Source of the DNA: Isurus oxyrinchus | Lineage: Eukaryota | Assembly (NCBI GenBank): GCA_026770705.1 | Contig: JANJGN010000029.1 | Span: forward strand, 22,816,001-22,880,000 | Direction: 5' to 3' | Length of the DNA: 64,000 nucleotides | Shown here: piece after piece, positions 14,803-54,844 of the stretch | How positions within the stretch are numbered: the stretch's first letter is position 1 | Layout of the letters: every line of letters starts with the position of its first letter | Made by a program: the position numbers and the translations under genes | The notes under the pieces: generated by a model | Databases searched by the model: none | Seen by the model: only the letters and a program-made list of their open reading frames with translations | Told to the model about the DNA's origin: nothing

Positions 14803-14950
14803 TGGCTGAAATACTAAGCAGGTCAGGCATCATTTGTGGAGAGAGAACAGAGTTAATGATTTGGGTCAATAATCTTGCGAGTTTTTCCAACATTTTCTGT
14901 GTATTTTTTTAAATTTCAGATTTCCACCATTTGCAGTGTTCTGCATTTTG
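14803..14950. mobile_element. Penelope-derived short inverted fragment
   Basis: agcaggtcaggcatcatttgtggagagagaacagagttaa followed by the opposite-strand tail gagtttttccaacattttctg...tcagatttcca. Confidence 0.65.
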
Positions 14951-29877: not shown

Positions 29878-30123
<246 letters not shown>

Positions 30124-31473
30124 TAATATGGGGACACGCTGTCTGAAAGGGTGTGGGAGGCAGACTCATTTATGGCTTTCAGAAGGGAATTGGGTAAGCA
30201 CCTGAAGGCAAAAAAAAAAAAACTGGTGCTATGGGGAAAGGGCAGGGGGACTGGGACTCGTGAAATTGCTCTTGTAGAAAGTCGACATTGCTAGCTGAAT
30301 GGTCTCCTTCTGTACTGTAATCATTCTATGATTCTAGACCAGCCAGTGGGCCCCAGGAGCGATTTCCAGTCTTGGCAGAGAGGTCAGCCAGGCTAGGCTA
30401 TAGCAGTTGCTTTTTGCACCTCGAGCTGGGGGACAGTTAAATGTACGAGCCCGAGTTTCTCCGACTGATCACTGTTGCGTGACCAGGGTCAGAGCCAGGT
30501 TTGACCTTCAGTTAAATAACTTGCTGAAGGTCATCCCACACACGGATGTGGCGTTGGTAACATCAGCTCAGCAAGCTTTAAGGAGAAAATATTGCCAAAA
30601 AACGTTTTCTTAGCTTTTTATAAACTTAAAATGACAGTGGGCACGTGAAAATATCAGATTTTTTACTACACTTTACAATTCACTTCAAGTTAACACGAGG
30701 CAGTGGTTGAAGGTTAGGAGTGGGGGGTGGTGTGGGCTGGGTGGAGGGGGGATATGTGGGACCTGGGAGTGCAGCAGGCTGGAGGAAGAAGCAAGGATGA
30801 GCAAGGCAGTGGATATCAACATGGCTGCATTGTGCTCTCCGGAGTTGATTTTCTGAATCCGAATAGTGTACATGTCTAGTGCAGCTTGGCTGGCAATGCC
30901 TTCAAGAGTCATACCAGCATGAACACAAGTCCCTATACATTTCTGTGCTTGCATATCGTCAATCAAGTGGTAATGTGAGCAGAAAGCTAAGAGCAATACT
31001 GGAAGGCAAGTTTTGATACTGCATTCTGTGCTTTATCAGCGCATGCTTTGACTGTGGACTGATATGATTTGTGTCTCCAGGTGTTGCTTTAAAGATTTCT
31101 AGTTGGAAAGAGGTGTAGGCTTGGTAATTTGCCATTTACTTGCGCTCTGAAGGTGGAAATGACTGGAGCCGACTGAGCTCCATTTATTTGGAACTTTTTC
31201 CAAGTTTAACAAATGTCTAGGTAAGAGATGGAGAGGTCCCAAGTGTTGCAGGACTGTTCTTTAACAGACCATGATGCCCCCATCCCACTTTTTAAAAAAA
31301 AAACTGGGTGAAATAGAAGCAGGACAAGAATATTGTTCCTTAAAAATGATGGACCTGATTCTATTAATTAATGGGAACATGCCAAGCCTCTGCATGCTAC
31401 TGTTTAAGTAATATTTGTCTATCTATCTCTAGTTCTATAAAATGTTTTCAGTCATTATATTATTTGTTTCCAG

Positions 31474-31547
31474 ATAAACTACTATTTCATTGCTGTTAAG
31501 GGATCAGCAATTGAAGGTTGGGCTGTGATGTACTACATTACCCATCT
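31474..31547 (+). CDS. GPR108: GPR108 exon 11 (INYYFIAVKGSAIEGWAVMYYITH)
   Basis: Canonical splice sites, 74 nt, phases 0/2. Confidence 0.96.
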
Positions 31548-31684
31548 GTAAGTATGTGTTAGAATGTTTGAAGGAAGGGTGAGCGTGATACTGGTGGTAG
31601 GGTGGGGTGCCATTCTGATGGCTTTGGCTGACCATTGAATGCTGTAACACTCTGGCTTCTGTTCTTATCATTGCTCTCAAGTTA

Positions 31685-32097
31685 GTTGTGACTCAGTGGG
31701 TGGCACTATTGCCTCTGAGTCAGCAAGTCCGAGTCCCACTCCACAGACTTAAGCACAAAAATCTAGGCTGACACGGCAATGCAGTGCTGAGGGAGTTCCA
31801 TACTGTCGGAGGTGCCGTCTTTTGGATGAGATGTTAAACCAAGGTTCTGTCTGCTCTCTCAAGTGCACTTAAGAGCCTGAAGCACTGTTTGATGAAGAGC
31901 AGGGGCCTTGTTGTCTATGTCTTGACCAATATTTATCCTGCAGTTAACCTGACTGAAACCAGATTATCTGGTCATTACTGTTTGTGGGAGTTTGCTGTGT
32001 TTCCTGCGTTGCAAAAGTGACTGCATGGGTTAAAAAGTGGTTGAGAGATCCTGAGGTTGTGAAAGATGCAATGTATACGTGTAAGTCTTTTCTTTTT
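31685..32097 (+). mobile_element. DeuSINE, near full length
   Basis: tRNA-like head gactcagtgggtggcact...gcctctgagtcag, body ggaggtgccgtcttttggatgagatgttaaacc, tail gtaagtctttt. Confidence 0.8.
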
Positions 32098-32153
32098 GGG
32101 GTCAGGCTTGTAAGCATTGTTCATTTGCTTTTTAAAGGTATGTTTCTTTGTAA

Positions 32154-32372
<219 letters not shown>

Positions 32373-33357
32373 TGAGGAGCGCAGTGAGTTTTGTGGTAGT
32401 ATGTAGATGATTTTAAAATTAATTGATTGCCAAATCCTTAAATATTTTGGGTGCTTTAATTTTTAAATGCTGCATGGGGAATTGCTTTCCATTACTTTTA
32501 TTTTCCAACCCTTTTTCTGGAAACATTGACTCTACAGCCTTTCTAGTACTTGTCAAATTGGCCATTTGTCAGTTGCATATGGAATGTCAGGATATTTCCC
32601 CATATGGGAGGGGCATCAGGGATGATGCCAATCTTGCCCAGTTATGTTCACTTTCCAGCAAGGCTCACTGGGTGGAGAGTAGCTGCCAGAAGTACACGGA
32701 GTTAAGAATATAAAAAATAGGAGCAGGAGTAGGCTATTCAGCCCTTCAAGCCTGCTCCATCGTTCAATCCAATGTACACTTGCTGCTGTGTCTCTTAGGG
32801 TGCCTTTTTTTTCTCCCACTGCTCAATTTTCCCACCTTCAGCCAGCCTGCCCTGGACAATGGAAAAAGCCCCAACACCTTAAACCATTTCTTACTGAATC
32901 CACTACAGGGAATCAAGCCAGGGCATTGCTGCTTTGTAACACTCTGTACCACTGCAGGTGTTGCGTTGAGTGGATGCTTCCTTTTTTAATGTAAACTGTT
33001 AAATTTGATAAAGGTCTGAGAAAATACATTAGCTCCATATTACTTGAACTATTTCAGGAGAACGATCCACTGGCATCCAGGCCTAAAACTGATGTTGTGA
33101 AGCCCCTCAATTTATTGTTTAAAAATAGTTGTGAAAATGTTCAGTTGATAAAATTTATATTTTTATTTTTAAAAAAAACTGGACAAGGTTATGTAGAAGA
33201 TATCTGCATGAATGTCATGCTGTCTTGTTGATTCTGCAGCAGCAATATTATGTGTAATGATGTTTGTTAGTTAGGCTGGTTATGCTTTGAAGACAATGAG
33301 GAGGGAAAGGTAACATAGCGGACGTTACTAATTTGTGAGCAGTTCAGAAATATTACT

Positions 33358-34029
33358 ATCATAACAGAAAATGCTGGAAAAACTCAGCAGGTCTGGCTGC
33401 GTCTGTGGAGAGAGAAACAGAGTTAACATTTCGAGTCCATTTGACTTCTGAGCTAGAGGTAGAAATGCGATGGATTTTATACTGTTTAAAAGGGGGTGAA
33501 ACAGGTGGAGCAAAATGGAAGATCAGGGATAGGTGGTATCTTGGGAGAGATTGACAAAGATGTCATGGACACAAGGGGCTGATAGATAGCAGAACAAGCG
33601 TCAGCCCTCTGTGAAAGTAAAGTATAAGAACAAGTGCCAGGGGGTGAGGTTGACCCCTCCACCCAAACTTATGATTTGCTTTCACACAGCACTGACCCTT
33701 GTTCTGCTATCAACACATTCTGCTATCATATCTTTATGCCGTTTTCAGCATCTTCATTAGTACTATCATTAACACTCCCTTGCCTTGTGTCCATGATATC
33801 TTTGTCAATCTCTCCCAAGATCCCACTTATCCCTGATCTTCCATTTTGCTCCACCCCCTTTTAAATAGTATAAAATCTATCACATCTCTACCTCTCTTTA
33901 GCTCAGAAGAGTCATGCGGACTCTACGTTAATTCTGTTTCTCTCTCCACAGATGCTGCCAGACCTGAGTTTTTCCAGCATTCCCTGTTTTTATTTCAGGT
34001 TTCCAGCATCCACAGTATTTTGCTTTTAC
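33358..34029. mobile_element. Penelope-like insertion with inverted pseudo-LTR arrangement and 14-bp TSD
   Basis: 33363-33575 is the reverse complement of part of 33780-33990. Flanked by tcagaaatattact at 33344-33357 and 34030-34043. Confidence 0.8.
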
Positions 34030-34985
34030 TCAGAAATATTACTGTTCAGGTATTCACCTTACTTTGTACAGTTCAAATCTCAGATTAGAACTGTAATAAC
34101 CTTGGCCAGCATTTGTTACATATTGTTAGATAATTGAAAATACCTTCTAAACTTGAGAGGAACTTATTAGAATAGTGGAGTGGGGCTGCTCTGCTTACAG
34201 AATTATTAGCGATTTTCTCCAAATGACAATGTTAGAAAAGTTTTCCTGATTATCCTAAAGGGATGGTGGTAAACCCTGTGTTGCCTGCCTGTTCAAGTGG
34301 ACTTTAGGAATCCCACAACGTAATTGAACTAAAGGGTGGGGAGGTCTGCTGGTGCCCTGACCAATATCCCTGCATTGACCACCAGCAAAGACATAGATTA
34401 ATTGGTGTCTACTGATGTAGAATTATTGCCTCGCTTGCTTGTGTAAACATGATAAAAGTAGTCTAAATCGAGCATTTTTATGTGCTTCTTTCCACACTCT
34501 GCTCGTATTATTGACTGAGGTATTAACCAGAATTGTGGCATTAAAAATTGTTGATTTAAAAATAGGAGACAAAGGCTATCTGTAACTGGAAATGTTCTTG
34601 GGCAATATAAACTTGGAATCTCAAGGATTATTGTTGGGACCCATGTTTTATGGACAAGACTATGTTAAGCAGAATGCCATATTTGCAGATGATGTGGGGC
34701 AAATGAGGGGGGAATGCAAACAATTGGGAAGTATTTAAATCTTGAGTAACTGGACCAGTAGGTGGCAGATGCAGTTCAGTTCAATGCTACTGTTTGGACT
34801 GTGCTCCTACAGTGGTACCCAGCATTTAGCGGCAGGAGAGGCATCCGACTCAACTGATTGAGTGTGTGTAAAGGCGTTTTTCAGAGTAACTGCTGCGCAA
34901 CTACTAATTCATCTAAACTTTTATTAAATAAGGTGGATTAATATATACTATGGGAGGGCAACAATAGGAGGTGCAGAAAAGTTAA

Positions 34986-35141
<156 letters not shown>

Positions 35142-36373
35142 TAAAGATTATTTACGAATCTATGAAATGCATGTACAAAAAATGTATTTCATCTTGAAAT
35201 CTCTATTTTCAAGTGACACCCACCCTGCACTCGTTTCATGTAGAGTCCTAATTTCACTCCTGAAAGGTCTGGCTTTAAATTTTAGGCCATGCCCCTTCGT
35301 CCTAGACTCTCCTTAATTGCCCCCTTTTAATATCTTTGAAAACTTTGATCAAATAGCCCTTTAACCTTCTCTCTTCCAGCCGCTGGTCACATCCTGCCAA
35401 TTGGATACCTGCCCATTTTCTGTAAAGGAATTTATGAAATGTTATTACCTGGAATAAGTGACAGTGGTGTAGGCGAAACACCACAAGACAGAAATCATTT
35501 GTCCAGGGTATAAAATTAAAGTTGACTTGGATTTCCCCTTCATAATTACACTATCACTGTAGACCCAAAGCTTAGAGTTTATAACTAAACTAGGAGATTG
35601 CACTTATCAGGCAAGCCTTTTACTCGAAAAGAGACTGAGCTGTGAGCTCTTGGAGGTCTTTAAGATTATGGAAAGGTTTGATTATAGGAAATGTTAGAAG
35701 CTGTATTCGCTTGTGGATGAGACCAAAACTAGAGGCCATAAATAAAAGATAGTCACTAATAAATCCAAAAGGGAATTCAGTAGAAGCTACTACTTTATGC
35801 AGAGAACAGTGAGAATGTAGTTGAGGTGAAGAGTGAACAGAATTGAAGGATACATTGATGAAGAGGGATGGACAGACACTCATGAGCATAAACATTAACA
35901 TAGATATTTTAGGCTGAATGGCCTGCTTCTTGGTTGTATTCTGCATACGAGAAGGAAAGAGAAAGCTGAATGTTGTTTTGTCCCATTGGAAAAGCTGCAT
36001 TTGGTGTTATGAAATGGGTACTGCAACTGTGCAGTGAATTTATGATTTTTTAATTTATTTATGATTTTTCTGTATGTCCATGTACTCAAAAAGCCGATTC
36101 AGACCATGCACCTGTGAATTGTTCAAGGGATAATTGATGCTCTTGTCGTCTATAACCTTCAGCCCCAACCCTGTGCGGAGTTGATTCTGTTCTAACTTGT
36201 GTACTTATCCAGCTTGCCCTTAAGTACTTGCGGATATGCCCATAAATCAGGCTACGTAGGTCTGATGCATGCGATTTGTGCGCACAAGATAATTCGAATT
36301 GCTGACCTTTCCTTAAATAAAATAAGAGAGCTTCACTGATTTAAGCTTCGTTTCTGGTTTTTGTATTTTTCAG

Positions 36374-36417
36374 GTCAATCAGGCACTTGCAGGAGGCCTC
36401 GAGCACAGATGGTAAAG
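36374..36417 (+). CDS. GPR108: GPR108 exon 14 (WSIRHLQEASSTDGK)
   Basis: 44 nt, phases 2/1. Confidence 0.96.
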
Positions 36418-36440
36418 GTAAGCTTGATAGTCTGACAGTT

Positions 36441-36714
36441 AAATGAAAGGCAATAACAAAAACAGAATTACCTGGAAAAACTCAGCAGGTCTGGCAGCAT
36501 CGGCGGAGAAGAAAAGAGTTGACGTATCGAGTCCTCATGACCCTTTGACAGAACTGTAGTTCTGTCGAAGGGTCATGAGGACTCGAAACGTCAACTCTTT
36601 TCTTCTCTGCCGATGCTGCCAGACCTGCTGAGTTTTTCCAGGTAATTCTGTTTTTGTTTTGGATTTCCAGCATCCGCAGTTCTTTTGTTTTTATCCAAAT
36701 GAAAGGCAATAACA
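36441..36714. mobile_element. Fold-back Penelope-derived mini-element with 18-bp TSD and hammerhead-like motif
   Basis: Arms 36455-36555 and 36558-36658 are near-perfect reverse complements. TSD aaatgaaaggcaataaca at 36441-36458 and 36697-36714. Confidence 0.85.
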
Positions 36715-36869
36715 GGTTATTCCAGGGTAACTCCATTCGATTTGACTCTATTTTAGAAAACATACCAATGAAGTGGAGATGATGCTACAATATTGCTAGT
36801 ACACTATATCATGCGCTACTTGTGTGGTATACTTCAGCTTATCTTCCTTTGCCATTTTTCTCTCCTTCC

Positions 36870-37180
36870 CATCTTTTTGTGGACCCTTGCTTGGGTGTAG
36901 GCGAGAGTTGCATTCCTGTATTTTGGTTCCAAGAGCCCATTGTTTACCTATAAGGTGATTCCCCAGTAGGATATTGAGCTGGAAATCACAGCGGAGCTGA
37001 GCCCAGACTGTCCTTGCCGAATGACCAGAGATGCATGCCTCTAGCCAGCAGACGTTGCTGACTGCGCAATGAGAGCACTCGACTTTGTTTCCCTTAATCA
37101 AAGACATTGGGACCTAGAAGATCCCTGGTTGAGACTGGAAAAAACCCCAGGTTTCAATCTGTGTGGCTCAGCTACTTGGT
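36870..37180 (-). mobile_element. Old SINE, family C (LF-SINE-like), degenerate; similar decayed copies near 8620-8900, 37755-37960, 52640-52880 and 56030-56210
   Basis: Shared blocks such as atcacagc...gagcccagactgtcct and aaatcagccag...ttcct. The family name is from memory. Confidence 0.45.
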
Positions 37181-37389
37181 CACTGAAGAGTTCTGCTGTT
37201 CACAATTCTTAAAGCTATTGAGGCACCTGGACTGTCACGTCCTGCACGGCCCCACCCCCACCACTCACTTCCTCTGCCCCCAAGGGCGCTTAAATCATGC
37301 TGTAGAAATGCTATTTCCTCCCTTCCTCTGGACTAAGCTCTATCTGTATATTAACTCAAGATTCTTTTCCAAGGGCAGAGCTTAATAGG

Positions 37390-37720
37390 AACAATAGGCC
37401 ATTCAGCCCCTTGAGACTGGTCTGCCATTCAGTGCGGTCATGGCTGATCATCTGCATCAAATCCACTTTCTTGCTATCTCCCCATATCCCTTGATTTGTT
37501 TAATCTCCAAAAAGCAATTGATTCAGCCACGAATGTACTCAACAACTGAGCATCCACAGCCCTTTGGGCTCCAATTCCCAAGATCAGAACCCTCTGAGTA
37601 AATGAATCTAGTCCTAACAGCTGACCTGTTATCCTGAGACTGTGACCCCTTGTTCTAGACTCTCCAGTCAGAGGAAATGCTCTCTTGGCATCTACCCTGT
37701 CAAACCCTCAAGAATTTTAT
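37390..37720 (-). mobile_element. CR1 3' fragment
   Basis: taggccattcagcccc...gtcatggctgatc...catctaccctgtcaaaccctcaagaattttata. Confidence 0.8.
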
Positions 37721-38089
37721 AGGAAAAGACATTTTTGGTCCAATTGGTCTTATCCCTACAATAGGAAGGGGGAGAAATCAGCCAGTGTTCCTATTTATGA
37801 TTGTGACTTTTCAGCACTTATTGGAAGTGTGTATATGATGATGGCTTTGGGATGACTTGTCATGCCCTGTAGTTGAATATTGGGCCAGTACCCATAGCAT
37901 ACACTCATTTGCCACTCATGGACATGAACTACTGTCTGAGCCTTTGTCCTTGGAAGGAAAATGATTGGGGGTTGTGGGGACAGATAAGAGGATAACTTGC
38001 TGCATAACTGAGAAAATTATGAAACTGGTAACGCAGTCTCAATTTTCATCATTAATTTTATTTTCCCTCCTGATATTTTTTATCTCTAG

Positions 38090-38139
38090 CTGCAATGAAT
38101 CTGGCCAAATTGAAACTCTTCAGGCATTTTTATGTCATG
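38090..38139 (+). CDS. GPR108: GPR108 exon 15 (AAMNLAKLKLFRHFYVM)
   Basis: 50 nt, phases 1/0, donor ATG|gtacgt. Confidence 0.96.
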
Positions 38140-38529
38140 GTACGTACATGCGCAGTGTTACTGTGAGATGCTTGGGTATGTGTTTACTATGTGGGCTTTG
38201 TTGTTGTTTCCTGGATGTTGCTCAGGATTGAGCGAGAGCTGCTTAAACGCTCGTGTATGTGAGAGTGGCAATTAAGTTCTGGCTGGGCCAACTTGGATTT
38301 TATAAAGAGTTAGGAGTGAGAGAAATGTTTGGCGTGGGAGAGTTAATCCAACCTTTGGGAAGTAGGTTTCACGGTGCACGGATGTGGTGGCTCCATTTGA
38401 GTTTGTTGGAGTTAGTGAGGCCAAGTACATCACAGATGGAAGATCCCATCCAACTTTAACAGTGGTGGTTGTTGGTTAGTCCTCAGCAACAAGTCTTCTC
38501 CCCTTTTTGTGGATACCTTCGCCGGTGAT

Positions 38530-38910
38530 ATTTTGACAGAGTTTAGAGGAAGGAGAGATGATCTCACTGAAATTATGAAACTCTCAAGAGGGCTTAAAAA
38601 GGGTGGACACCTGAGAGGCTGTTTCTCCCTGGCTGGAGAGTCGAGAACTAGGGATCGCGGTTTTAGGATAAGAATCGGACATTTAGAACTGAGATGAGAA
38701 ATTTCTTCACTCCGAGGGTTGTGAATTTTGGAGTTATGTACCGTAGTGGGCCGTGGATGCTCAGTCAAGAGTGTAATTGATCAGTTTTTGCACTGAAGGA
38801 AATGAAGTGCTATGGGGTGGCAGGAAAGTGAAAGTCAACCATGCTTGTAATTAATGGCAGAGCAGGCTTGAGGGTCTGTGTAGTGTGCTGCTGTTCTATT
38901 TCTTATGTTT
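38530..38910 (+). mobile_element. CR1 3' fragment
   Basis: EFRGRRDDLTEIMK...GESRTRDRGFRIR, followed by the tail. Confidence 0.75.
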
Positions 38911-39016
38911 TTGCATTGTTGCATGGGAGGTACACAGATGTAGGATGGAATATTGGAGGGCACAGACCTACCATATTTATTGTGAATTCCTATGTCTTTT
39001 GTTATGTTTCTAATAG

Positions 39017-39130
<114 letters not shown>

Positions 39131-39494
39131 TGAGCATCTAATGGTTAGGATCAGCACTTTTGGTTATTTATAAACAGGAGAGAAAAGTGTAACAACAGAA
39201 TGGTGAAATATGGCAGTCTTAGCCTGATACAGATGGTGGAATGTTATCAAGGGGCAATGTCTCAAAGCTTGTGGAAATTGGGACTTTGGGTTTCAGTTGT
39301 TCAACTGTTGTAAATAAGGTTAATGGTGCATAGATTTGTCCATTATAAAGCTGGAGTAGCAATTGTGTTTGTATTGTGGTATAATCAGAAGTGTAAAAAA
39401 AAACTACAAATCAAAAGCTTAAAGTTTAAACCTTTCAGCAATTTCCATATAGAACCATTTTACTTATTAAAGACTTGTAATTTTTTTAAACACA

Positions 39495-40275
39495 ACAACG
39501 GAAAAACTCAGATCTAACAGCATCTTTGGAGATAAAAACAGTTAACGTTTCGAGTCCGTATGACTCTTCAGAGCGAAAGAGAAGTAAAAATGTCATGAAA
39601 TTTATACTGTTTAAAGGGGGGTGGAGCAGGTGAAGCTGGATAGAAGGCCAACAATAGGTGGGGCAAAGGAGAGATTGCCAAAGACGTCATGGACAAAGTG
39701 GGTGCTAATGGTAGTGGTATGGGCTAAAGGAGGTGCTGATGGTGGCATTAAGGTAAGAGAGCAGAGTGTGATAATAGGACAAGGGTAAGCACTGTGGAAT
39801 GAACAACAGGAACAAGTGACAGATGGCCCTTGTGAGGGTCGGGGGAGGGGATGATGGTGGGAAAAAAGATCGAAAATAGGATAAAAGTTGGGGATAAAAC
39901 AATGAATAAAAGTAAGTGGATAAAAAATAAAAATGAATATTGAAAAAAGAGATTAAAAAAAGGGGTGGAGATGGAGGAGAGAGCTCATGGTCTGAAGTTG
40001 TTGAACTCAATGTTAAGTCTGGAAGGCTGTAAAGTGCCTAATTGGAAGATGAGGTGCTGTTCCTCCAGTTTGCATTGAGTTTCACTGAACATTGCAGCAG
40101 GCCAAAGATGGACATGTGGCCATGAGAGCAGGGTGGAGTGTTGAAATGGCAAGCAACAGGAAGGTCTGGGTAATGCTTGCGGACAGACCGAAGGTGCTCC
40201 ACAAAGCGGTCACCCAGTTTGCGTTTGTCTCTCCAATGTAGAGGAGGCTGCATTGGGAACAATGAATGCAGTGGA
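39495..40275 (-). mobile_element. Penelope-like element 3' part: GIY-YIG endonuclease remnant and pseudo-LTR
   Basis: ORF 40038..40262 (KRKLGDRFVEHLRSV...DLPVACHFN), then a frameshifted KLEEQHLIF.LGTLQP..LNIEFNNF. The downstream pLTR carries gactcgaaacgttaact. Confidence 0.85.
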
Positions 40276-40419
40276 CAATGCAGTTTTTATACTTCTGATT
40301 ATCAATATATGTCCCAGGAACTTCAATCGTTGTTGGGGCTTGTTTTTTGCTTGCTTTTTTTTAAGGAAAACCAGAGTGTCTCTTAAGTACAAAGAAAATG
40401 CACTTTGAAAGATTATTAA

Positions 40420-40760
40420 CAACAACATGCAACTGTATAGTGCCTTTTAACTTAGAAAAATATCCTGAAAGGAATGGGCAAAACACGTGATAAGAAAAAA
40501 TGGAGGTTAGAAAGGTTGAAAAGGATTGGGTTTTAAGGAATGTCTAAAAGGAGAGAAGGGAAGTGGAGGTTCAAAGAGGGAATACCAAGACTGGGATCTA
40601 GGTGACTGAAGGAATAGCTGCCAAGGTTAATGCAAAAGGGATGTATAAAATGCTGCAGTCGAAGGAACGGAGAGCTCATCTGTGGGGTTGTAGTGCTGGA
40701 AGAGGTTGTGGAAACGGGGTGAGGGAAGGCTGTAGGAAGATTTAAAGACAAGATTAAGTG
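40420..40760 (-). mobile_element. L2 3' fragment
   Basis: Similar to 15260-15650 and 24350-24810. Confidence 0.6.
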
Positions 40761-41815
40761 TTGACCTTTTGTGTTATTTAGATAAAATAATCCAGAGTAT
40801 CATCGTAAAATAGGCAGGACAATGGTACCAGAAATTAAACACGTTAACTTATGAGAAATAGATTTAAATTAGATACCCGAAGGAACTTCTTCACATACAT
40901 GGGATAAACATTTTGGTATAATCTGTCAGGTAAGACAGTAGAGATTGAACGTGTTGGAATAGTAGAGAGATGAGCTTTGCTGGGACAGATATCCTTTTCA
41001 TGTTCTTGATTTGTATTATGTTTTAATTTATTTTATATTAAGCATTATTTTATTTATTGAAGAGCCTTGACAACTGATTTGATTCCTAAAGGATCTTACG
41101 ATTCTGACATTAAAAGCTAGGGATAGAATTTCAGCTTTGGACGCAGCTGGCAAACAATGTGAACCCTGCTTGAAATTGCACTATTTTTCCTAAGTGAATT
41201 TATGGTTCAAGTTTCTCCTCAAATTCAATTGTATAATTGCAAACATAAAATCTTCAAAACCACAACTGGGCAGCATAATAGAATGTAAATCTTCTTCCTT
41301 GCATTGAAATAATTCCTTGATATAATTAGAAGTGAATAGTTGGGGCAGTTTTATCACAAAATTGGAGTGTTTCACCCACAGAAAGCTATGCTGGGAAATT
41401 TACTAGTTTCATTGGTGTATAGTATTCAGTTTCTTGGTAAATTAAATACTTTTTAATATTTACAATATTTTTATAACATACCTCCCTATGAGCCTTTATT
41501 TATATAAAAAAAAATCCGAACTTCATTTTGGAGAGTCTTCCTGAACACTGCAGTCAGTGGAAAATCACCGCACTCTTATTTTGATTTGAGGGCAGGGCCT
41601 TTTGGCATTTACTGAACCAGCATTAGAGATAGCAGAACGTTGATTCAACTCTACGTAACATATGCTTGAAGTTTCTTGATCCATTACACTGGTTTGCCTG
41701 ATTCAGGCAAACTGTGCTGGTAGAACCAGCAGAAACACTAATCCCTGATGTTTTTGGCATTCCACACCCTGTAATTTGTTACTTTTCTAATTTTTTGTTT
41801 TAAAAAACTCATTAG

Positions 41816-41938
<123 letters not shown>

Positions 41939-43463
41939 TAAGTATCTAGACCTATTCACACAGTAGCAATTGGTCAGAACTCCATTGCCTGCATCAGTAA
42001 CAACAGCTGGGCATTTCCTTTTGGGAGGGCAGAAGATTAAAAAAAAATTTTTTTTTTTTTTTTTTTGCACTAATACACATGATGAATTTAAAAGCTGGTT
42101 GACTTATTTGTCCGCATGGTTCCTGTAACCTACCAACCAGTTTTAAGCCACTATATTTCCAATGACCCTTGTCTGGCGCTGTATTCGCATCTCTGTAGCT
42201 TCAGCACTTGCCCCACGTTTTAACATGCCTTTAGATAAATAGTGAATTATAACTGAAGTTTAGGAAATCTGAGATCCGGAATGCGCTGCCTAAAAGGACA
42301 GTGGAAGCAGATTTGACAGTAACTTTTGGAAGGGAATTGGATAAATACTTGAAGGGGAAAGATTTGCAAGGCTGTGGGGAGAGAGCAGAGACTGGTCTGA
42401 AAATGGAAAGTTCTTTAATTTCTTAAATATGAATTTGGGTGTATATTTGATTCTTAAATTTGTGCCCAGGATGTCAAGTTCCAGCAGAGGCAGAAATGTA
42501 TGAGTAATAATAAGTTTACATGGAATTCATACATATGTTTTTCATTAATTTTTGTTTTTGCACTTTGCTTGTGCAGTATATGTCTGCTATAGATTTAATA
42601 TTGTTTTGCAAGGTGCTATGAATTAATTTGTATTCGACGGTAGTTAACATGACTGTATAACTGCACTATTTTTACATAAATCTAGATTGGTGAAAATTGG
42701 AGTAGTAGAAGAAAGCCTCTTAAAAGTGGTGACTGAACCAGTTTTTTTTTGGTTAATCTGTGATTGGTTTAAAAGGACAAGTATAGTTCAAGGGGAGTAG
42801 CCTCAAGTGCACCCCAAGTTCCCATCCTAGAAAGCTGTATCCAGCAAATGTTTATGCCCCCCTTTTTTTTTTAAAGTCACTGTATTTGCTGCTTTAATGT
42901 GTTTGCATCAACTCCCTACCATACTCACTTGTGCTAGCCTTGGTGAGCACCCACATCAGCTCCATCCACCCCAAAAGGGCTGGCACTCCAGATCAGTCCA
43001 TGAGCTGATCTGGAGCTACCCAGCTCAACTGAGTACGCAGCTTGTAGTGTGTTGCACCAAGCAGCAGCTCGATAGTGCCAGTCCCCATTGATGTGTATGG
43101 TGGCAGCCATGGGTCCACATGGTTTCTTGATCCCTAATCATGGACTCAGTGACACCATCAGAGACGCCAAGGAGGTAAGATGGGAGAAGATGCCAAACTT
43201 TGCTAGATAGGTAGATATCTTCCTTTCTGCCTCCTTAACCAAACCAAATCTAAAGTACCTCCAAAAATCATTCCTGTCCTTGCTCACCCAATTTTGAAGG
43301 GTTCTTTCATTAGAATTGAGGATGTTTTTGAAATTGCCCTAAAAAGTCAAAGGACATCCCTGTTGCACTATCGCCACATCTGACCCCATCTCCTTCTAGC
43401 AGCTTTTCACACAGTTGACCACGCCAGCCTTCTCCATTCTCCAGCTGTTTGGGACACCTTAGC

Positions 43464-43610
43464 CTGGTTTGACTCTTAGTTACAGAGTTCCAAAGAAGAG
43501 TCATTTTGTCCTCAAAATGTTAACTCTGTTTATCTCCCCACAGAAGCTGCCAGACCTGCTAAGTTTTTCCAGCACTTTGTTTATATTTCAGATCTCTGGT
43601 TTGACTCTTA
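43464..43610 (+). mobile_element. Short Penelope-derived insert with 15-bp TSD
   Basis: ctggtttgactctta at 43464-43478 and 43596-43610, around gaagagtca...gttaactctg...gctgccagacctgct. Confidence 0.75.
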
Positions 43611-44020
43611 ATTATCTAGTTGCAGTCTGCAACGGCTTCTCTTCTCACACTTGAAGCCACCCCTCCCTCCACCCGAAAGATCTATCTTTGGCCCCTTCCT
43701 ATTCCTTGTCTACATGCGACCTCATCATCTGAAGACATGATGTCAGTTTCCATGTGTACACTCTATGTCACCACTTCCTCTCCCCTTTCAGTGTTGCACT
43801 GAAGTTTCATCCTGCATTATGTGCTGGAGTTGCTTTGTTTTTAACAGCCCCATACTAGTATATCTGTGCTGCTTTGGAGGGGAAAATGTGGCATTAAAGC
43901 CCATGTCAGTGTGAATTGTGGAATAAGCCTTGGCCTGTGTGGTGGAACACGATTCTGGCAAGACGACATACAGATCGGATGGTGGTATTGACTTATCCAA
44001 AAATGTGTTTTCCCCTTAAG

Positions 44021-54562: not shown

Positions 54563-54844
54563 ATCAAAATGGATAAAAACAAAAAACTGCGGATGCTGAA
54601 AATCCAAAACAAAAACAGAATTACCTGGAAAAACTCAGCAGGTCTGGCAGCATCGGCGGAGAAGAAAAGAGTTGACGTTTCGAGTTCTCATGACCATTCG
54701 ACAGAACTAGGTGAATCCCCTAGTTCCGCCTAGTTCTGTCGAAAGGTCATGAGGACTCGAAACGTCAACTCTGTTCTTCTCCACCGATGCTGCCAGACCT
54801 GCTGAGTTTTTCCAGGTAATTCTGTTGTTGATCAAAATGGATAA
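54563..54844. mobile_element. Second fold-back Penelope-derived mini-element with 14-bp TSD
   Basis: Nearly identical to the element at 36441-36714 in the opposite orientation. TSD atcaaaatggataa at 54563-54576 and 54831-54844. Confidence 0.85.

What the first reader, a model, noticed from the sequence alone, without database searches (positions are those of the whole stretch)
36441..36714. Young fold-back mini-retroelement with a minimal hammerhead-ribozyme motif and atypical core, about 25 nt from a GPR108 splice donor
Seen: 101-nt arms (36455-36555 and 36558-36658) with a 2-nt loop and about 3 imperfect pairs, an 18-bp TSD and no coding capacity. The right arm begins AGUU-CUGUCGA-A-GGGUC augag GACUC-GAA-ACGU-C-AACU (36558-36596): helix I AGUU/AACU, helix II GGGUC/GACUC, palindromic ACGU helix III and a GUC cleavage triplet. 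Established: Penelope-like pLTRs carry minimal type I hammerheads with palindromic helix III that cleave as dimers. Unusual: the core is CUGUCGA (A6 to U) rather than CUGANGA, the same variant occurs in the second copy, and the inversion point sits exactly at the 5' edge of the motif. Inference: a non-autonomous, retrozyme-like hairpin family mobilised by Penelope RT/GIY-YIG. Its transcript would be a ~100-bp dsRNA that masks its own ribozyme and could feed Dicer or ADAR, or affect splicing of exon 14.
Basis: partly seen in the sequence, partly recalled or inferred. Interest (0 to 1): 0.75.

Follow-up and report, generated by a model that had tools for sequence, protein, structure and literature searches.

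The report
Fold-back stub of shark Penelope retrotransposon
The hairpin is a short, protein-less, head-to-head double copy of one end of a very abundant Penelope-type jumping gene in a shark intron, a known kind of insertion, although the whole family carries an unusual one-letter change in its hammerhead ribozyme motif that would likely weaken self-cleavage.

Summary
In detail: 101-nt arms, 3 mismatches, 2-nt loop, 18-bp duplication, minimal hammerhead motif with U6, beside GPR108-like coding exon 14. It is not a separate retrozyme-like family. It is the terminal ~138 nt of an autonomous Neptune-type Penelope element (intact 926-aa RT+GIY-YIG ORF in a 3.35-kb tandem; 92,000-150,000 exact probe matches), inserted in the published pattern 'inverted pLTR, one tail, TSD'. 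Inner breakpoints run from +55 to beyond -3000 but pile up at the motif's 5' edge (2,342 exact fold-backs, against 137 at the cleavage site and 51 upstream), with 27 different junctions in 50, so they are mostly independent events at a hot spot, probably the transcription start. U6 is family-wide (66,327 vs 98 A6). Nearly every head-to-head insertion has one long and one short outer end (39 of 40; 30 of 30) and most have 13-16-bp duplications, suggesting that both target strands prime on the same RNA. The insertion is shared with a second organism label. No effect on splicing was shown. The scan reported this kind before in other genomes (at least one a shark).

The parts
36374..36417 (+). Coding exon 14 of a GPR108-like gene (44 nt); donor GT at 36418-36419
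36441..36458 (+). Left target-site duplication, 18 bp; its last 4 nt also match the element end (microhomology), leaving 14 bp
   Evidence: family duplications 13-16 bp in 30 of 40 pairs
36455..36555 (-). Short inverted arm: element positions 1 to ~101, no tail; its hammerhead motif (36517-36555) carries G8A and A14U and is predicted dead
36556..36557 (.). Two-base junction, not matching the parent's upstream sequence (likely untemplated); the same junction occurs at 31 genomic places
36558..36696 (+). Long arm: element positions 1 to ~138 of the pLTR of a Neptune-type Penelope family
36558..36596 (+). Minimal type I hammerhead motif with U at core position 6; predicted cleavage after 36592 (GUC)
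   Evidence: architecture per PMC4209133
36659..36695 (+). Penelope 'tail' (~34-37 nt), present on this arm only
   Evidence: PMC3846280, PMC11167929
36697..36714 (+). Right target-site duplication, 18 bp

Best explanation
This is a protein-less, 5'-truncated head-to-head insertion of the terminal repeat of an abundant autonomous Penelope-like retrotransposon, likely made when both nicked target strands primed reverse transcription on the element's RNA. Shown: parentage, two fixed outer ends (~+103 and ~+137), one of each per head-to-head insertion, a 13-16-bp duplication, and a breakpoint hot spot at +1. Inferred: a dimeric RT/GIY-YIG protein cuts the target with a ~14-nt stagger; each 3' end primes at one of the two internal start sites; both cDNAs run to the RNA's 5' end, which in these short copies is probably the transcription start at the motif's 5' edge; the two cDNA ends are joined with 0-8 extra bases. 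The hammerhead is a passenger in this copy. It is masked by the hairpin, and U6 probably lowers cleavage in the whole family.
For: Parent: L077:4710-7487 is a 926-aa open frame with RVT_1 (above cut-off) and GIY-YIG (E 9e-4, below cut-off) in a 3,353-bp tandem that begins with the same sequence; it has a CX4CxxC linker, the mark of Neptune/Nematis (PMC8557442). Abundance: 92,412 and 149,596 exact 24-mer matches. End rule: 39 of 40 head-to-head pairs have one long and one short end, while 46 other arms split 21:25; 30 of 30 examined loci with the window's junction have exactly one tail. Inner ends of paired arms are correlated, rho 0.77, n = 39. Paired arms share 15 rare non-CpG variants against 0.65 (maximum 6) in 2,000 shuffles. 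Hot spot: 32 of 86 insertions end at -8..+8; genome-wide 2,342 vs 137 vs 51; the best-supported strand-switch joints in raw DNA reads of organism B are at +1/+1 and +1/+2. A TATATTT motif lies 29-32 nt upstream of +1, and sister subfamilies read TCAGTT or TTAGTT across +1 (Inr consensus recalled). Where the farther arm reaches +1 (17 pairs), it is the short arm in 12 and the long arm in 2; 9 of 50 junctions are loop-less perfect palindromes. Both disfavour a tail-bearing cDNA folding back on itself. An Anolis Penelope protein cuts and extends both strands, starts at two internal sites that define the tail, and is predicted to be a dimer (PMC11167929).
Against: No RNA 5'-end data: only contigs of guessed-RNA runs were available, so the transcription start is inferred. 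Shared variants between arms could also come from gene conversion or from two RNAs of one source locus. In 10 of 39 pairs the long arm reaches further, and 8 tie. In vitro, start-site use did not differ between strands (PMC11167929), which does not by itself give one long plus one short end. The sample is one 2.9-Mb stretch of contig C1 mapped to a single reference copy; only 7 of 14 single arms at the hot spot have an abutting duplication of 8 bp or more, so some may be mis-mapped. D. virilis Penelope has a TATA-less internal promoter (PMC2377424). Rfam gave no hammerhead match at E up to 5.
Confidence: 0.8

Rival explanations
1. The same Penelope insertion, but the inverted arm arises by self-priming (the RNA or cDNA folds back on itself), and the endonuclease then resolves the intermediate, leaving the tail on one side.
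For: Proposed in PMC3846280 (self-priming on an antisense template) and PMC8557442 (tail from EN resolution). It predicts correlated inner ends and shared variants between arms, as seen. Many junctions are offset by 5-30 nt.
Against: The tail-less arm usually reaches further (21 vs 10 overall; 12 vs 2 at the hot spot), the reverse of what a tail-bearing cDNA folding back would give. Loop-less palindromes are common (9 of 50). An antisense template would have to end exactly at the sense Inr-like site. Both ends match in vitro RT start-site behaviour of a related element (PMC11167929).
Confidence: 0.25
2. The hot spot is set by RNA structure or by the ribozyme (an RT pause at helix I, a native micro-palindrome across +1, or self-cleavage) rather than by the transcription start.
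For: The breakpoint coincides with the 5' strand of helix I; one young subfamily has a 5-bp stem with a 2-nt loop across +1.
Against: Fold-backs at the predicted cleavage site are 17-fold rarer (137 vs 2,342), and most listed ones are joins at the GACGTC palindrome, with only 5 of 50 loop-less at the cut. Hot-spot junctions also come from the subfamily lacking the micro-palindrome (TGATCA junctions, 5 of 50). Helix I is predicted weak (pair probability 0.05-0.10).
Confidence: 0.15
3. One reading: the fold-back unit is itself a non-autonomous, retrozyme-like element that is transcribed and re-inserted as a unit.
For: 2,342 exact fold-backs at this edge; some junctions recur (9, 9 and 5 of 50); 31 places share the window's junction and 22 of 30 examined have the tail on the same side.
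Against: 27 different junctions in 50 places (counted by hand); the window's junction occurs with the tail on either side and in two sequence subfamilies, and no other examined locus shares the window's three variants in the ~57 nt compared per arm; arm lengths are continuous up to >3 kb; the unit lacks the upstream TATA-like region; it has no tandem monomers, which define animal retrozymes (PMC7229834).
Confidence: 0.07
4. The hairpin has been recruited by the host and regulates GPR108 through dsRNA (Dicer, ADAR) or exon 14 splicing.
For: A very stable ~100-bp stem in the pre-mRNA 38 nt after the donor; retained in two organism labels.
Against: The arms have decayed like neutral copies (3 of 101, two at CpG; family median 2.2%). 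Probe density (about 1.9 per 64 kb) makes intronic copies routine. The donor is not predicted to pair with the element. The one guessed-RNA run laid on this stretch had no coverage of the exon, so nothing was measured.
Confidence: 0.04

Closest known systems
Insertion units of endonuclease-positive Penelope-like elements: pLTR, adjacent inverted 5'-truncated copy, 30-40-bp tail on one end, TSD (Arkhipova et al. 2013, PMC3846280; Craig et al. 2021, PMC8557442)
   Same: Head-to-head inverted copy, tail on one arm only, TSD, hammerhead in the pLTR, partial tandems of full-length elements.
   Different: Here both arms are cut to the minimum (start at +1, no ORF); the hot spot and the one-long-one-short rule are counted on thousands and dozens of copies rather than on a few.
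Neptune clade of PLEs
   Same: [quoted passage not shown]
   Different: No RT phylogeny was built; the sampled targets are ordinary AT-rich sites, not the microsatellites mentioned for Neptune in PMC8557442.
Poseidon element PAc of Anolis (Frangieh et al. 2024, PMC11167929)
   Same: Two internal RT start sites that bound the tail; both strands cut and extended; hammerhead dispensable for insertion in vitro.
   Different: PAc has a canonical, protein-assisted hammerhead with the ORF starting inside it; here the core has U6 and the first Met of the long ORF lies downstream of the tail.
Minimal type I hammerheads of metazoan PLEs (Cervera and de la Pena 2014, PMC4209133); natural A6C variant of phage Bcep176 (PMC3088659, PMC7151607)
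   Same: Short helix I, bulged base after A9, G10.1-C11.1, palindromic 15.2-16.2, expected dimer dependence.
   Different: Position 6 is U in 66,327 of 66,425 exact matches; the core variant reported for PLEs in the text read was U3-A8, and the reported natural position-6 variant is C.
Animal non-LTR retrozymes (PMC7229834; bioRxiv 10.64898/2026.07.22.740005)
   Same: Non-coding, hammerhead-bearing, related to PLE pLTRs.
   Different: Retrozymes are head-to-tail tandem monomers giving circular RNAs; this is a single head-to-head insertion with variable breakpoints.

Membership tests
EN+ Penelope-like element insertion | Sequence is the pLTR of an element encoding RT plus C-terminal GIY-YIG | tested here: met
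   (GIY-YIG hit is below Pfam's cut-off; the YIGET motif is present)
EN+ Penelope-like element insertion | Inverted 5'-truncated copy adjoining the 5' end | tested here: met
EN+ Penelope-like element insertion | 30-40-bp tail on one end only | tested here: met
   39 of 40; 30 of 30
EN+ Penelope-like element insertion | Target-site duplication | tested here: met
Neptune clade | CX2-5CxxC linker between RT and endonuclease in the parent ORF | tested here: met
   residue 792; definition from PMC8557442 passages; shared with Nematis
Neptune clade | Placement in an RT phylogeny | not tested
   no reference set held
Minimal type I hammerhead ribozyme | Helices I and II, bulged base, G10.1-C11.1, palindromic 15.2-16.2, NUH triplet | tested here: met
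Minimal type I hammerhead ribozyme | Invariant core CUGANGA / GAAA | tested here: not met
   U at position 6 in 66,327 vs A in 98 exact matches; no Rfam hammerhead hit
Minimal type I hammerhead ribozyme | Covariation in the helices | tested here: inconclusive
   113 motifs: one one-sided change (A-U to G.U), no compensatory pair; loop and linker vary while core and stems hold (8 of 22 vs 1 of 32 positions, hand-counted, p = 0.002)
Minimal type I hammerhead ribozyme | Self-cleavage as a dimer | not testable with these tools
   needs an in vitro assay
Animal non-LTR retrozyme | Head-to-tail tandem monomers each with a hammerhead | tested here: not met
   single head-to-head insertion
Animal non-LTR retrozyme | A fixed non-autonomous unit copied as such | tested here: not met
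   variable breakpoints and junctions
Animal non-LTR retrozyme | Monomeric linear and circular RNAs | not testable with these tools
   no raw RNA reads offered

The most novel reading that the evidence does not exclude
A currently intact Penelope lineage with over 60,000 copies fixed a U at the 'invariant' hammerhead position 6, yet kept the rest of the fold through later subfamilies, so the motif is either a protein- or metal-rescued ribozyme of a new core type or has become a non-catalytic signal. Its insertions also record, in their strict one-long-one-short ends and matched inner ends, that an RT dimer copies one RNA twice from two start sites onto both target strands. That would explain the long-unexplained inverted-pLTR-plus-tail structure of all such elements.
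Probability: 0.35. Interest if true: 0.6.

Novelty: new member of a known kind. Interest (0 to 1): 0.3.

Why it matters
The single insertion matters little: it is one of thousands. The family gives two testable handles on open questions. First, how Penelope elements make inverted copies with a tail on one side is not settled in the papers read, and the end statistics here make a sharp prediction for a reconstituted reaction. Second, the role of the Penelope hammerhead is unclear, and a successful family with a core change expected to cripple cleavage is a natural test of whether cleavage is needed. Descriptor searches that require CUGANGA would miss all of these copies.

Tried and rejected
Rfam scan of 30000-44000 at E up to 5 gave only generic miRNA-hairpin and weak hits, all below gathering scores, and no hammerhead; the miRNA reading was rejected. 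Folding the motif alone does not give the hammerhead as the lowest-energy structure (z 0.5), as expected of a dimer-dependent minimal motif but no support either. MITE or DNA foldback transposon: rejected because the arms are unequal and the parent encodes RT. Cleavage-site-defined 5' ends: rejected as the main source (137 vs 2,342; 1 of 86 sampled insertions ends at +36). The first BLAST sample was biased to copies reaching +1 and included many copies of one segmental duplicate, so it was not used for breakpoint counts. Presence/absence polymorphism: no empty site was seen in the tables shown for 4 runs, but these were swamped by repeat reads (608 joints not shown), so polymorphism is not excluded. 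Expression, editing and splicing: not measurable; X15 and X16 are contigs of guessed-RNA runs and X16 had no depth on the exon. Extra C next to the cDNA end (a possible cap footprint) appears in a few of 50 junctions but was not tested against chance. Lunse et al. 2017 on PLE hammerhead variants was not held.

Full report
1. Observation. The arms 36455-36555 and 36558-36658 are 101 nt, differ at 3 positions and are separated by GT; an identical 18-mer lies at 36441-36458 and 36697-36714. The region folds at -218.7 kcal/mol, z -23.4. The right arm continues beyond the stem for about 37 nt before the right duplication. The host is a shark GPR108-like gene: one exon matches shark proteins named GPR108-like or GPR107-like at up to 100%, with 13 of 16 hits named GPR108. 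Mapping P0003 gives 18 coding exons, and 36374-36417 is the 14th.

2. What it is. The 139-nt long arm has near-identical copies across the genome. Exact 24-mers from it match 92,412 and 149,596 times, with 0 for the reversed controls. Longer copies continue upstream into a GIY-YIG and RT coding region. A tandem array on C1 has a 3,353-bp unit with an open 926-residue frame that hits RVT_1 above cut-off and GIY-YIG below cut-off and has a CX4CxxC linker, which marks the Neptune and Nematis clades (PMC8557442, passages). The window feature is therefore the pLTR end of an autonomous Penelope-like element. Its layout, inverted copy plus tail on one arm plus TSD, is the typical structure described in PMC3846280 (passages) and PMC8557442.

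3. Breakpoints. I fetched 79 regions around the 100 listed matches of the downstream probe on C1 (0-2.9 Mb), which held 119 probe matches, and mapped them to one full-length unit. Keeping arms whose outer end lies at +85 to +155 gave 40 head-to-head pairs and 46 other arms; read-through copies and pairs with one end elsewhere were not counted as pairs. The farthest inner ends run from -3214 to +55, so these are truncation products. However, 32 of 86 fall at -8..+8 (18.8 per 10 nt, against 0.6 just upstream and 4.4 just downstream). Genome-wide, exact fold-backs with 13-nt arms and a 0-8-nt gap number 2,342 at the motif's 5' edge, 137 at the predicted cleavage site and 51 about 24 nt upstream (the upstream probe fits only the youngest subfamilies, so that ratio is overstated). 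The 50 listed places at the edge show 27 different junctions (hand count). The window's own junction occurs 31 times; in 30 examined, the tail is on the right in 22 and on the left in 8, and both arms carry a second subfamily's loop in 4. Raw DNA reads of organism B laid on one copy give their best-supported strand-switch joints at +1/+1 and +1/+2, and loose ends at +101 to +103 and +137 (199 weaker joints not shown).

4. How it most likely forms. Shown: 39 of 40 pairs have one long (~135) and one short (~103) outer end (binomial p 7e-11 against 0.5), whereas other arms split 21:25; 30 of 30 in the second set. Duplications are 13-16 bp in 30 of 40 pairs and 13-15 bp in 22 of 30. Inner ends of partners correlate (rho 0.77), and partners share rare variants (15 vs 0.65 expected; 8 of 40 pairs contribute). 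Established: the Anolis Penelope protein cuts and extends both strands, initiates at two internal sites that bound the tail, and is predicted to be a dimer (PMC11167929, parts 1-2 of 4 read). Inferred: the two nicked strands each prime at one site, both cDNAs copy the same RNA (or two RNAs from one source) to its 5' end, and the ends are joined. The 5' end at +1 is most likely the transcription start: TATATTT lies 32 nt upstream in the youngest subfamily and 29 nt in sisters, which read TCAGTT or TTAGTT across +1 (promoter consensus recalled). A TATA plus Inr in a pLTR is noted in PMC3846280, but D. virilis Penelope is TATA-less (PMC2377424, passages). The self-priming model of PMC3846280 remains a rival; against its cDNA form, the tail-less arm reaches further in 21 pairs against 10 (12 against 2 at the hot spot). 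My confidence is about 0.93 for the identity, 0.6 for double priming and 0.65 for the start site.

5. The hammerhead. Architecture matches the minimal PLE motif of PMC4209133 (parts 1-2 of 4 read). U6 is not peculiar to the hairpins: in an otherwise fixed 35-nt context it occurs 66,327 times against 98 for A6, including in the intact tandem. Among 113 motifs parsed from 168 anchors, 100 have U6, 8 A6, 4 C6 and 1 G6; the A6 copies belong to more diverged subfamilies. Between an older and the youngest U6 subfamily, 8 of 22 free positions changed against 1 of 32 core or stem positions, and that one keeps the pair (hand-counted, post hoc, p 0.002). There is no compensatory pair, and the constraint could reflect promoter or protein-binding needs. 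Changes at position 6 lower activity: natural A6C gives kobs below 0.1 per min (PMC3088659, passages), and A6C is nearly dead at 0.3 mM Mg2+ but active in Mn2+ (PMC7151607, passages). Cleavage is not needed for insertion in vitro (PMC11167929), and Naiads thrive without canonical hammerheads (PMC8557442). In this copy both motifs are fully masked by the hairpin (pair probabilities 0.000 against 0.05-0.25 in the free arm), and the left motif has two further core changes. I found no paper reporting a natural A6U hammerhead (two listings seen, neither on this by title and abstract start), none on shark Penelope hammerheads and none on twin priming in Penelope (listings only). Lunse et al. 2017 was not held and the supplements of PMC4209133 were not read, so a prior record of U6 is possible.

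6. Age and host effect. Contigs of organism B cross both junctions into the element and differ from the window at 7 of 461 flank bases; contigs of organism A, possibly the source sample, match exactly. The arm divergence (3%, two CpG changes) is near the family median of 2.2%. At about 1.9 probe matches per 64 kb, an intronic copy is routine. The donor site is not predicted to pair with the element. No RNA evidence on splicing, editing or small RNAs was available.

7. Comparison and verdict. It is a member of the known class of Penelope insertion units; it fails the tests for an animal retrozyme (tandem monomers, fixed unit; PMC7229834 passages; bioRxiv 10.64898/2026.07.22.740005, part 1 of 5 and passages). 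Two reviews were read in passages for context (PMC6155905; PMC6765202). Five earlier notes of this scan in other genomes reached the same reading; they are unchecked AI notes, seen after my own reading was fixed, and look-ups by sequence and place found nothing. What goes beyond the ordinary is family-level: the fixed U6 core and the strict end rule. Novelty: new member of a known kind. Interest 0.3.

Noticed in passing
window 54571-54830: Second insertion of the same family: tail-bearing arm on the minus strand (54571-54708), short arm on the plus strand (54732-54830), a 23-nt spacer holding upstream element sequence and a short duplicated piece, 14-bp duplication; helix II is damaged in both arms.
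   Followed up: yes
window 33358-34028, 39500-39702, 43511-43578, 14808-14867: Older relatives of the element (75-83% identity); 33358-34028 is a larger head-to-head insertion with nested inverted repeats, and the copy read from 39571 on the minus strand has an A6-type core.
   Followed up: partly
L003-L006, L009-L017, L030 (small contigs C330-C1744): One insertion site with the same downstream flank recurs on at least 14 small contigs with different upstream structures (near-full element, inverted stub, or bare stub): a highly amplified segmental repeat carrying rearranged versions of one insertion.
   Followed up: no
L076/L077 (G000:C1:459500-469000): Head-to-tail array of three pLTRs at 3,340-3,353-bp spacing, 99.4% identical; one unit has an uninterrupted 926-aa frame, others carry frameshifts. 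L097, L098 and L083 are similar partial tandems.
   Followed up: partly
L024 (G000:C15:19802492-19802902): A fold-back insertion nested in the centre of an older fold-back of a sister subfamily, suggesting insertion into its own kind.
   Followed up: no
motif table: Four older copies have C at core position 6 or an adjacent change (CUGCUGA, CUACUGA, CUUCUGA), so position 6 may have drifted more than once in this lineage.
   Followed up: no
window 14002-44105: All 18 coding exons of the GPR108-like gene map inside the window on the plus strand.
   Followed up: yes
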